Assembly (NCBI RefSeq): GCF_009914755.1
Contig: NC_060927.1
DNA length: 64,000 nucleotides
Origin: the human T2T-CHM13v2.0 reference genome, Homo sapiens
Strand: one strand, 5' to 3'
In this document: positions 24,597-26,689 of the stretch, piece after piece
Numbering within the stretch: the first letter of the stretch is position 1
Layout: each line of letters begins with the position of its first letter
Notes under the pieces: generated by a model
Databases searched by the model: none
What the model saw: the letters and a program-made list of their open reading frames with translations, nothing else
Told to the model about the DNA's origin: nothing
Program-made: the position numbers and the translations under genes

Positions 24597-26050
24597 TTTT
24601 TTTTTCCAAAGTATAAATTCATATTTTGTAGGAAATGTAGTTTACAAAACAGTATCAATCGCTACCCCCAATCCAGATGACCCACTTTCCTCCGAAGGGG
24701 GACGTTTAGGTCCTATTCCACTGGGCAAGGGTAAAATGATTCAGTAGTCTTCCAGGTTAACAGTAAATTCTTCTCCCAAGGCTGGGGCCGTCAAGGCACA
24801 GTCTGTATGAGGCTCACCCTGTCTGACCCTAGGCTGGGGCTGCTTGCTCGGTAGGCAGGAATTGGGGTGGGGGTGGGGGCTCAGGGAAGGGTCTGCACCC
24901 TGAGACTTCTGCTTACAGGAGGGTGCTGGGAAAACCCTGCCTTGGGTTGGGGAATCCCCTCTCTCCCACCTTTGGGGAATAGGGTGGGGAGGGGGTAAGT
25001 GGGACCCTGCTGCCTGGAGGGCTCAGGTCTGAGCAGCAGGGAGCCCTTAGTGCCCACTCCAGCAGACCTATTGGGAATTTACTACCTGAAGACAAATTAT
25101 AGGTCTAGGGTCTTCTTTGTGATTTTGGGGGAGTCGAGGCATTGGGGGGTGAGAGGTATGGTCTAAGGTCACAGTCTGGGAGAGGAGTCCTTGGGATCAA
25201 AGGTTGTGCAGAAGCACCTTCCCCACCTCCTGCCTCATGAGATAAGGTTGCCAGGATTCCATTATCATGGTGAATTTCTCTGGGCTCGTGGGTTAGGGGT
25301 CACAGTGGAGCCACCAAGGTAGAAATCACAAATGGGACGCATGTGTGTTAACTGACAGTGGCCTGGCCAGACATCAGGGGGCACTAGATCCTTGGCAAGA
25401 AAGCTAAGGGATCAACAGGTGAGATGTGAGACACCAGGCGCATGGCAGCTCACACGTACATGGCCCGGGACATGACAAAGCATTTGCCCTGGTAGGAATC
25501 AGAGGGGCTGCTGTAGGACAGAGCATCATAGATGGGGTTGATCTTGTCCAGATACTCTTCCTCCTCCTCCCCCTCCTCATCCTCTAGATCCAGGGAAACG
25601 TCTTCCAAAGCAGGTGGCCCTGGAGGCACCGGGATGGGGGACCCCAGGCTTGTGGCTCCAGGGTGCAAGGGTCCTGACCGCTCTTCCAAGGTGGGCAGCT
25701 CATGGTATCGAGGCATTTCCTGCTCAGTGCATGAGGCGCCAGCGTCAAAGTAGGGGGTCTTGAGTGGGCTGTGCTCTGAGGCCACCAGAGTGAAAAGCTG
25801 GGAGGGCATCTCCTGCTCCTCCAGCTTCTCTTTTGGGGTCAGCGGCTTGTAGGAGGGAGGTCCCTCCAGGCTGTGGGGTAGGAGGTAGGTCAAGTGGAGA
25901 CTAAGACCCGGGCATCCCTCTGAATCCAGGGTTACAGCACATGCTGTTCCCTCTATCTGGGTCCCCCTTTTCCCTGCCCCCTTTTCTTGCCTGGAGTAAG
26001 AGTTTTTTTGTTTTGTTTTGGTTTTTGGTTTTTGGTTTTTTTTTTTATTG
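24597..26050 (-). pseudogene. 5'-truncated, partially processed retrocopy of NECTIN2 (PVRL2/CD112, delta isoform): last coding exons, 3' UTR and poly(A)
   Basis: 25870->25450 translates LEGPPSYKPLTPKEKLEEQEMPSQLFTL...EEEEEYLDKINPIYDALSYSSPSDSYQGKCFVMSRAMYV*, nearly identical to the nectin-2 delta tail as I recall it; no introns within this stretch; GC-rich UTR; T9 at 24597-24605; TSD CTCATTTC (24589-24596 and 26051-26058). Confidence 0.93.
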
Positions 26051-26689
26051 CTCATTTCAAAAATCTCCAGCATCTAGTATAGAGTCTAGAGCATAGGTAC
26101 TCATAAATACTTAATAAATACTTGAATTAATTTATTTCTATTTGTCCCCTTTCCCCACAGTCTTATTCATTGTTCTCATATTAAATTAATGATCACTAAA
26201 TTCATGCTGTTTGATTGTTTAATGAGTGGCAGCTCATTAAGTATCAAAGACTTGACAACTGATGAGTCACCGTTTATCAAGTAGCTTCCTTTAAAGAAAC
26301 TAAGAAGGCCATGTAGACATTACCTTTGGATTCTGCCAGGACATTTAGAGTAAATGAATGCCAGAGAGTGCATCTAAGGTCACACAGTGAGAGGGTGAAT
26401 CTTAAACATCCACTAGAACCTCAAGCCATGCTGCCACTTTAAAGAATGCACCATGATACCAACAACTTGAAGAATCTTTCTAAAGAAACCTTTCTTCAAA
26501 GGGAACATGGTGTTGGCAAATGTGCTGATTAAAATCCTATGGTACATTTCCTTTCAAAATGTCAAAATCTATTTGCTCCTCTCATTTACATCTATGCCCC
26601 ACAATATTGATGGCTGTAGGATTCAGCCAGTCTATTAAACCATCTAATGTCCTTATAAAGTAGATTACATAGGGTGGTTATAGTCTCCC

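What the first reader, a model, noticed from the sequence alone, without database searches (positions are those of the whole stretch)
24597..26058. A NECTIN2 (CD112) retrocopy lies antisense inside CD96, a receptor of the same nectin immune-checkpoint axis
Seen: about 1.27 kb matching the nectin-2 delta cytoplasmic tail and 3' UTR, with poly(A), an 8-bp TSD and a TTTC/AA L1-endonuclease-like site, on the minus strand of intron 3. Established: CD96, TIGIT, CD226 and PVRIG bind PVR/nectin ligands; CD112 is a ligand of CD226, TIGIT and PVRIG. Inference: every CD96 pre-mRNA carries a long stretch complementary to NECTIN2-delta mRNA, so receptor transcription in T/NK cells yields a possible trans-antisense or endo-siRNA source against a ligand of its own pathway. 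The location could be coincidence.
Basis: partly seen in the sequence, partly recalled or inferred. Interest (0 to 1): 0.75.

Follow-up and report, generated by a model that had tools for sequence, protein, structure and literature searches.

The report
NECTIN2 processed pseudogene in CD96 intron
A dead, reverse-transcribed copy of the tail end of the NECTIN2 gene lies backwards inside an intron of CD96; it is real and already annotated, and nothing in its sequence suggests that it does anything.

Summary
Window 24597-26050 (minus strand) is a 1,454-nt L1-type retrocopy of the 3' end of NECTIN2 delta mRNA. RefSeq annotates 417 nt of it as NECTIN2P1. Over 1,401 nt it aligns without gaps to three pieces of the chr19 NECTIN2 gene (48 mismatches, 3.4%). 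Two GT..AG introns are removed exactly. The copy ends at the parent's poly(A) site with a 10-nt A-rich tail and is flanked by an 8-bp target-site duplication (chance about 0.001) at a TTTC/AAAAA nick site.

New details: the 5' 180 nt is a retained NECTIN2 intron fragment plus an expanded A-rich microsatellite, not tail or UTR. Five of the six amino-acid differences arose in the copy at positions kept in 11-12 of 12 mammals. The copy carries three catarrhine-only residues and keeps an ancestral residue that human and gorilla NECTIN2 have since changed.

The regulatory idea (trans-antisense or endo-siRNA against NECTIN2) gets no support from what could be tested:
- Mismatches are evenly spread.
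- 1,301 human retrocopies lie antisense in host genes, so the layout is generic.
- The papers read name CD155 and CD111, not CD112, as CD96 ligands.
- Somatic RNAi is inefficient.

Expression could not be tested. Best reading: a neutral passenger pseudogene. Interest is low.

The parts
26051..26058 (-). 5' target-site duplication, GAAATGAG
   Evidence: Read directly. Pairs with 24589-24596 (family D13). An exact shared 8-mer at such boundaries has P about 0.001 (21 of 20,000 random pairs).
26008..26050 (-). 5' end of the insert: CAAT followed by an A-rich microsatellite (A-runs with CC or C interruptions). The parent intron has only (G)AAT plus five A here.
   Evidence: Side-by-side reading of the copy and C19:47710380-47710540. 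The expansion of about 39 nt relative to the parent is inferred to have arisen after insertion.
25871..26007 (-). Retained fragment of the NECTIN2 intron upstream of the third-from-last delta exon, including its polypyrimidine tract and AG acceptor
   Evidence: Ungapped match to C19:47710521-47710657, 10 mismatches of 137. In the parent this lies between the delta transmembrane exon (ORF at C19:47706880-47707086) and the exon starting at 47710658.
25450..25869 (-). Coding remnant: the last 139 codons plus stop of nectin-2 delta (cytoplasmic tail ending in the C-terminal ...AMYV). It derives from three exons: 25870-25807, 25806-25720 and 25719 onward.
   Evidence: Both junctions match exact removal of GT..AG introns of 132 nt and 1,890 nt. 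There are 14 mismatches of 421 and 6 amino-acid differences of 139; the frame is still open. RefSeq NECTIN2P1 is 25453-25869 (hub table).
24607..25449 (-). Complete NECTIN2-delta 3' UTR
   Evidence: Ungapped match up to C19:47713943, 24 mismatches of 843. The homology stops exactly where the A tail begins.
24597..24606 (-). Remnant poly(A) tail (G plus nine A)
   Evidence: Read directly. It is absent from the parent locus, which continues with unrelated sequence.
24589..24596 (-). 3' target-site duplication, GAAATGAG. The + strand nick site reads TTTC/AAAAA.

Best explanation
This is NECTIN2P1, a 5'-truncated processed pseudogene.

How it arose (inferred from the anatomy): a partly spliced NECTIN2-delta transcript had its last two introns removed and the preceding intron still present. 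The L1 machinery reverse-transcribed it from its poly(A) tail at a TTTC/AAAAA nick in what is now CD96 intron 3. Copying stopped, or the cDNA was joined, about 140 nt into the retained intron.

When: in a catarrhine ancestor, after the split from New World monkeys and before the human-gorilla ancestor. From the divergence, roughly 15-35 million years ago (inference, using recalled neutral rates).

Since then it has drifted as non-functional intron DNA. It is transcribed only passively, as part of the CD96 pre-mRNA, and is removed with the intron. The antisense orientation and the NECTIN2/CD96 pairing are coincidental.
For: Shown:
- Exact loss of two GT..AG introns.
- The copy ends at the parent's polyadenylation site with an A tail.
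- 8-bp TSD, P about 0.001.
- Parent on another chromosome, identified as NECTIN2.
- GC 55% inside versus 33% and 38% in the 2-kb flanks.
- No signal peptide, ectodomain or transmembrane exon is present. The copy starts inside an intron, so no parental promoter came with it.

Relaxed constraint: 5 of the 6 amino-acid differences are changes in the copy. At codons 10, 14, 29 and 88, 12 of 12 mammals keep the parental residue, and at codon 130, 11 of 12 do. I chose these 12 sequences from the 95 hits.

No preserved block: the longest identical run is 148 nt, P 0.20-0.30 under random placement. CpG observed/expected is 0.18, so it is not a CpG island.

Other negatives:
- No Rfam family reached its gathering score: 0 of 4 weak matches, E 0.36-0.74.
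- None of the exons the hub table lists for CD96 falls in 24589-26058.

Dating:
- The copy shares catarrhine-only residues at codons 45, 90 and 105.
- It keeps E at codon 18 like 11 of 12 mammals, while human and gorilla NECTIN2 have A.

Base rate: 1,301 human retrocopies lie antisense in host genes (PMC7290577, passages).
Against: - The 139-codon frame is still open, and there is no indel in 1,401 nt despite 48 substitutions. From recalled indel-to-substitution ratios I would have expected a few indels, so this is mildly unusual and unexplained.
- Exonic divergence (38 of 1,264) is lower than in the retained intron piece (10 of 137), Fisher p = 0.021. Constraint on the parent explains this most simply, but constraint on the copy is not excluded without an outgroup.
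- Landing in a gene of the same receptor-ligand network is unlikely a priori for this one pair. CD96 spans 4.0e-5 of the genome.
- No expression data of any kind could be consulted.
Confidence: 0.9

Rival explanations
1. The antisense NECTIN2 segment in CD96 pre-mRNA, or in a stable intron fragment, pairs with NECTIN2-delta RNA in cells expressing both. This would lower NECTIN2-delta through endo-siRNAs, ADAR editing, nuclear retention or dsRNA sensing.
For: - Complementarity is long and high: 1,264 nt at about 97%, a longest perfect run of 148 nt, and 19 runs of 21 nt or more covering 1,081 nt.
- Antisense pseudogene RNAs do silence their parent genes in mouse oocytes (PMC11239679, passages).
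- Retrocopy-derived trans-NAT candidates are catalogued in human: 295 candidates, 78 with correlated expression (PMC7290577, passages).
Against: - There is no region of preserved pairing.
- The sequence is intronic. No CD96 exon or other transcript is annotated over it (hub table), whereas the catalogued trans-NAT candidates are exonic or lncRNA-borne.
- Somatic RNAi is inefficient, limited by Dicer and by innate dsRNA sensing.
- NECTIN2, PVRL2 and CD96 are absent from the one held supplementary file of that catalogue (0 occurrences; the file may be incomplete).
- CD96 is not described as a CD112 receptor in the papers read.
- The layout is shared with more than 1,000 other retrocopies.
Confidence: 0.04
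2. The copy is transcribed on its own (minus) strand as a NECTIN2P1 RNA. It would act as a microRNA decoy through the copied 3' UTR, or be translated from the 207-codon open frame (26073-25450) into a soluble nectin-2-delta tail carrying the C-terminal motif that in nectins binds afadin's PDZ domain (recalled).
For: - The frame is open from an ATG in the upstream flank through the intron fragment to the parental stop.
- The full 843-nt 3' UTR is 97% preserved.
- The last nine residues are unchanged.
Against: - No promoter came with the copy, and CpG observed/expected is 0.18.
- The same frame is also open through the corresponding intron stretch in the parent (ORF C19:47710485-47711024), so the long frame is largely inherited.
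- There are five changes at positions invariant or nearly so in mammals, one of them G130C close to the C-terminus.
- RefSeq calls it a pseudogene with no exons given (hub table).
- No paper mentions NECTIN2P1 or PVRL2P1 (0 hits each).
Confidence: 0.03
3. The insertion matters in cis for CD96, not for NECTIN2. A GC-rich 1.4-kb block with T-rich tracts on the CD96 strand could alter elongation, splicing around the alternatively spliced 48-nt exon at 32316-32363, or act as a regulatory element.
For: - Sharp GC contrast, 55% versus 33-38%.
- On the + strand, the reverse complements of the A tail and of the A-rich microsatellite are pyrimidine tracts.
- Nested retrocopies are discussed as sources of transcriptional interference and new exons (PMC7290577 and PMC2584115, passages).
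Against: - No annotated CD96 exon among the 16 transcripts, and no RefSeq functional element, falls in the segment; the silencers lie at 41379-41839 (hub table).
- The copy is more than 2 kb from the nearest exon (22462) and more than 6 kb from the next (32316).
Confidence: 0.04

Closest known systems
L1-mediated processed pseudogenes (retrocopies) of the human genome, as catalogued in RetrogeneDB and GENCODE
   Same: Spliced, polyadenylated, 5'-truncated, flanked by a short TSD at an A/T-rich nick site, on a different chromosome from the parent, and nested antisense in a host-gene intron like 1,301 others (PMC7290577).
   Different: It starts inside a retained intron, so the template was an incompletely spliced transcript. 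The usual template is a fully processed mRNA. It covers only the last three exons.
Antisense-pseudogene endo-siRNA sources of mouse oocytes (Tam 2008 and Watanabe 2008, as cited in PMC11239679)
   Same: A pseudogene sequence lies antisense within a longer transcript and is complementary to the parental mRNA.
   Different: Those are stable lncRNAs in oocytes that express a truncated, dsRNA-proficient Dicer. Here the sequence is intronic in a gene of T and NK cells, and no stable RNA or small RNA is known.
Retrocopy-derived trans-NAT candidates, for example KRT18P29 exonised antisense in PPP1R1C (PMC8071448) and PTENP1 antisense RNA
   Same: A retrocopy lies antisense to its host, or is transcribed antisense, and so is complementary to its progenitor.
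   Different: In those cases the antisense piece is part of a mature transcript, as an exon or a lncRNA. No such exon is annotated for CD96 at this site.

Membership tests
L1-mediated processed pseudogene | Parental introns precisely absent | tested here: met
   Two introns (132 nt and 1,890 nt, both GT..AG) are removed to the base. A third, upstream intron is partly retained.
L1-mediated processed pseudogene | A tail beginning at the parent's polyadenylation site | tested here: met
   Homology ends at C19:47713943. The copy continues with G plus nine A, while the parent continues with unrelated sequence.
L1-mediated processed pseudogene | Target-site duplication flanking the insert | tested here: met
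   An 8-bp exact repeat at both boundaries. 21 of 20,000 random pairs did as well.
L1-mediated processed pseudogene | Insertion at an L1 endonuclease-type site (consensus TTTT/AA, recalled) | tested here: met
   The reconstructed empty site on the + strand reads TTTC/AAAAA. The consensus comes from memory, not from a call.
L1-mediated processed pseudogene | Dispersed from the parent, without the parental promoter | tested here: met
   Parent on C19, copy on C3. The copy begins in an intron downstream of the transmembrane exon.
L1-mediated processed pseudogene | Evolves without protein-level constraint | tested here: met
   5 of 6 amino-acid differences are derived in the copy at positions kept in 11-12 of 12 mammals. 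The counts are small: 5 versus 1 has binomial p = 0.22 on its own.
Functional trans-antisense or endo-siRNA source against the parent gene | A stable antisense RNA containing the segment, and small RNAs or duplex-dependent marks derived from it | not testable with these tools
   No expression or small-RNA data are available. Only passive inclusion in the CD96 pre-mRNA can be inferred, from the annotation.
Functional trans-antisense or endo-siRNA source against the parent gene | Complementarity preserved above the neutral expectation, in whole or in a block | tested here: inconclusive
   No block stands out (longest run P 0.20-0.30). Exonic divergence is lower than intronic (p = 0.021), but constraint on the parent explains that. 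No primate outgroup DNA was available.
Functional trans-antisense or endo-siRNA source against the parent gene | Co-expression of host and target in the same cell | not tested
   No expression resource was available in the tools, and I made no literature search on NECTIN2 expression in T or NK cells.
Protein-coding retrogene | Complete or functional ORF under purifying selection, with its own promoter | tested here: not met
   Only the last 139 of the roughly 538-540 residues seen in full-length primate proteins are present. There are changes at invariant positions, no CpG island, and RefSeq types it as a pseudogene.

The most novel reading that the evidence does not exclude
In cells that transcribe both genes (activated T or NK cells, or CD96-positive leukaemic cells), the 1.26-kb antisense segment of nascent or excised CD96 intron 3 pairs with NECTIN2-delta RNA. 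The resulting long, nearly perfect duplex would be edited, sensed or diced. CD96 transcription would then tune the delta isoform of a ligand of its sister receptors CD226, TIGIT and PVRIG. This would be a catarrhine-specific, retrocopy-born link within one checkpoint network.
Probability: 0.03. Interest if true: 0.6.

Novelty: already known. Interest (0 to 1): 0.1.

Why it matters
As it stands, it matters little. It is one more annotated processed pseudogene, and the report mainly closes a lead.

Small gains:
- The true extent of NECTIN2P1 is 1,454 nt plus TSDs, not the 417 nt annotated.
- Its template was an incompletely spliced delta transcript.
- It dates to a catarrhine ancestor and preserves an ancestral NECTIN2 residue.

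Practical point: the copy is 97% identical to the NECTIN2-delta 3' end. Reads, probes, primers, siRNAs or guides aimed at the NECTIN2-delta tail or 3' UTR can therefore cross-map to CD96 intron 3, in the antisense sense. That could create spurious 'NECTIN2 antisense' or CD96-correlated NECTIN2 signal in T and NK-cell total-RNA data.

If the regulatory reading were true, it would be a rare somatic case of a host gene regulating a pathway partner through a nested retrocopy.

Tried and rejected
- PDB sequence search with the copy's 140-residue tail found 0 hits at E up to 1. I identified the parent through its V-domain exon instead.
- Other NECTIN2 retrocopies: the genome search with the copy found only the parent and itself, plus two X/Y segments and short A-rich matches (10 matches). 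The alpha-isoform last exon has no second copy, only itself and 10 short low-complexity matches.
- The X and Y matches are not retrocopies. Their homology runs about 129 nt past the NECTIN2 poly(A) site.
- Rfam with a permissive threshold gave 4 matches, all far below their gathering scores.
- Literature: 'NECTIN2P1' 0 papers, 'PVRL2P1' 0, CD96+pseudogene+NECTIN2+intron 0. The held supplement of PMC7290577 has 0 occurrences of NECTIN2, PVRL2 or CD96. It is one file of 4.0 M characters, and other tables may not be held.
- A possible microhomology between the 5' TSD and the parent intron just upstream of the truncation point (6 of 8 bases by eye) does not give a clean junction. I make no claim from it.
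- Polarising the nucleotide differences was not possible, because no primate DNA is held. Only amino-acid states could be polarised.
- The CpG asymmetry (8 parent-only, 11 copy-only) suggests both lineages changed at similar rates. This sits uneasily with strong constraint on the parent UTR, and it keeps the age estimate wide.

Full report
**What is there.** On the minus strand, window 26058-24589 has seven parts in order:
- an 8-nt repeat, GAAATGAG;
- CAAT followed by an A-rich microsatellite;
- 137 nt that end in a polypyrimidine tract and an AG;
- a 139-codon open frame ending ...AMYV plus stop;
- 843 nt of non-coding sequence;
- G plus nine A;
- GAAATGAG again.

A search of the window's own genome with 24597-26058 found, apart from itself, three collinear pieces on contig C19: query 52-252 at 93%, 252-340 at 96%, and 337-1452 at 97%.

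**Identity of the parent.** I fetched 45 kb of C19 and translated it.
- The region contains a signal-peptide exon and Ig-domain exons.
- It has an alternative last exon ending ...RRAVYV and a transmembrane exon.
- It also contains the three exons matched by the copy.
- The V-domain exon aligns to PDB 5v52_C 'Nectin-2' at E 2.8e-86, with identical residues through the domain. The poliovirus receptor and nectin-1 follow far behind, at E 6e-22 and weaker.
- The copy's frame finds 95 database proteins at E up to 1e-5. The sources name almost all of them nectin-2, and one is a marmoset 'isoform delta' at 89% identity over 100% of the query.

The parent is therefore NECTIN2 and the copied isoform is delta.

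**It is a retrocopy.** With exact exon boundaries, copy 26007-24607 and the parent pieces 47710521-47710721, 47710854-47710940 and 47712831-47713943 are both 1,401 nt. They align without a single gap.
- The two parental intervals that are missing begin with GT and end with AG, and the copy joins the exons to the base.
- Homology stops at the parent's last transcribed base, where the copy has its A tail.
- The 8-nt direct repeat sits exactly at both ends. In 20,000 random pairs of sites at the same spacing in this window, 21 shared 8 nt or more within 12 nt of the boundaries.
- The reconstructed empty site reads TTTC/AAAAA on the CD96 strand. This is a one-base variant of the L1 endonuclease consensus, which I recall from memory.
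- GC content is 55% inside against 33% and 38% in the 2-kb flanks.

The 5' end is not tail or UTR. The copy begins about 140 nt inside the NECTIN2 intron that separates the delta transmembrane exon from the third-from-last exon, at an AATAAAAA stretch of that intron. In the copy this A-run has grown by about 39 nt into an A/C microsatellite.

The template was therefore a transcript whose last two introns were already spliced while the preceding one was not, and reverse transcription or joining ended inside it (inference). No exon upstream of this point is present, so the copy has no start codon of its own gene, no ectodomain, no membrane anchor and no promoter.

RefSeq's NECTIN2P1 (25453-25869) marks only the coding remnant. 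The whole insert is 24597-26050.

**Host and intron.** Window 1-213 (+) encodes residues 50-120 of CD96 domain 1 (PDB 6arq_A, E 1.5e-46). None of the CD96 exons listed in the hub table overlaps it.

**Divergence and age.**

| Region | Mismatches | Share |
|---|---|---|
| Whole alignment | 48 of 1,401 | 3.4% |
| Retained intron | 10 of 137 | 7.3% |
| Coding part | 14 of 421 | 3.3% |
| 3' UTR | 24 of 843 | 2.8% |

(All.) Intron versus exonic differs with Fisher p = 0.021.

In the coding part, 7 codons differ synonymously and 6 change the residue. I aligned the tails of 12 mammals, chosen by me from the 95 hits: four primate groups plus six other orders.
- P10L, A14E, G29V and V88L are changes in the copy at positions where 12 of 12 mammals keep the parental residue.
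- G130C is a change in the copy where 11 of 12 do.
- At codon 18 the copy has E like 11 of 12 mammals, while human and gorilla NECTIN2 have A. This one difference arose in the parent after the copy was made.
- The copy also carries the residues found only in the four catarrhine sequences at codons 45, 90 and 105.

So the copy was made after the platyrrhine split and before the change shared by human and gorilla.

With recalled neutral rates, 3.4-7% pairwise divergence suggests roughly 15-35 million years (inference). CpG sites were lost about equally on both sides, 8 only in the parent and 11 only in the copy.

**Is anything preserved?** The mismatches are spread as chance predicts. The longest identical run is 148 nt, and a run this long or longer occurs in 20% (all 1,401 nt) to 30% (exonic part) of random placements. 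Other checks:
- CpG observed/expected is 0.18.
- Rfam gives nothing at or near its gathering scores: 4 weak matches, E 0.36-0.74.

Two mild oddities remain. The 139-codon frame is still open, and there are no indels in 1,401 nt. Given the small number of substitutions, neither is compelling.

**The regulatory idea.** It is true by construction that a CD96 pre-mRNA reading through intron 3 contains 1,264 nt about 97% complementary to NECTIN2-delta mRNA, with 19 perfect runs of 21 nt or more. Four points weigh against reading this as function.

1. The arrangement is common. Of 4,554 catalogued human retrocopies, 2,139 overlap genes and 1,301 lie on the opposite strand (PMC7290577, passages). Every one of those hosts carries antisense to some parent gene.
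2. The candidates for trans-antisense action listed there are exons of mature transcripts or lncRNAs, not bare intron sequence. NECTIN2, PVRL2 and CD96 do not occur in the supplementary file that is held, though other tables may not be held.
3. Long-dsRNA RNAi is limited in mammalian somatic cells by Dicer and by innate sensing. The pseudogene precedent is from mouse oocytes (PMC11239679, passages).
4. The 'own pathway' link is one step removed. The passages I read name CD155 and CD111 as CD96 ligands, and CD96 tetramers appreciably bound only CD155-high cells in a panel that also held CD112 transfectants (PMC7618557). A CD96 review states that human CD96 does not bind nectin-1 (PMC5966540, passages), and its only mentions of nectin-2/CD112 that the search returned are in the reference list.

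**Coincidence.** CD96 spans 4.0e-5 of the genome. For this one pair the chance is small. But suppose each parent has functionally linked genes spanning some 0.3-3 Mb (my assumption). Then thousands of retrocopies would give on the order of 0.4-4 such pairs genome-wide by chance. A scan that reads every window will meet them.

**Verdict.** The object is an already annotated processed pseudogene, and its full anatomy is now described. The best-supported reading is a neutral passenger in CD96 intron 3 (confidence 0.9). The trans-antisense reading is not excluded, because no RNA data could be consulted, but nothing in the sequence favours it (about 0.03-0.04). No paper in the searched library mentions NECTIN2P1 or PVRL2P1, or links CD96, NECTIN2, pseudogene and intron.

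Noticed in passing
L004 (G000:C23:2542927-2543222) and L005 (G000:C24:13259258-13259548): A segment of about 300-320 nt on chrX and chrY is 79% and 75% identical to the genomic 3' end of NECTIN2. The homology spans the poly(A) site and runs about 129 nt beyond it, so it is a DNA-level relationship and not a retrocopy. Only four places in the genome match: the parent, NECTIN2P1, X and Y. The origin is unexplained. It could be an old low-copy repeat or a small duplicated fragment.
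   Followed up: partly
window 25450-26073, minus strand: A 207-codon stop-to-stop frame with an ATG at its start runs from the flank upstream of the TSD, through the microsatellite and the retained intron fragment, into the nectin-2 tail. The same frame is also open through the corresponding intron stretch of the parent (ORF C19:47710485-47711024), so the length is largely inherited.
   Followed up: partly
window 24607-26007 versus C19: There are no insertions or deletions in 1,401 aligned nt despite 48 substitutions. The only length change is the expansion of the A-run at the 5' end. This is mildly fewer indels than I would expect from recalled pseudogene indel rates.
   Followed up: no
C19:47710659-47710721 (parent), codon 18 of the tail: Human and gorilla NECTIN2 carry A where the pseudogene and 11 of 12 mammals examined carry E. 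The pseudogene thus acts as a molecular fossil of the ancestral catarrhine sequence.
   Followed up: yes
window 47709-50155 (-) and 10998-17051: According to the hub table, ZBED2 is another gene nested antisense in CD96, and a masked block of about 6 kb (possibly a full-length L1) lies about 7.5 kb upstream of the pseudogene in the preceding intron. I examined neither.
   Followed up: no
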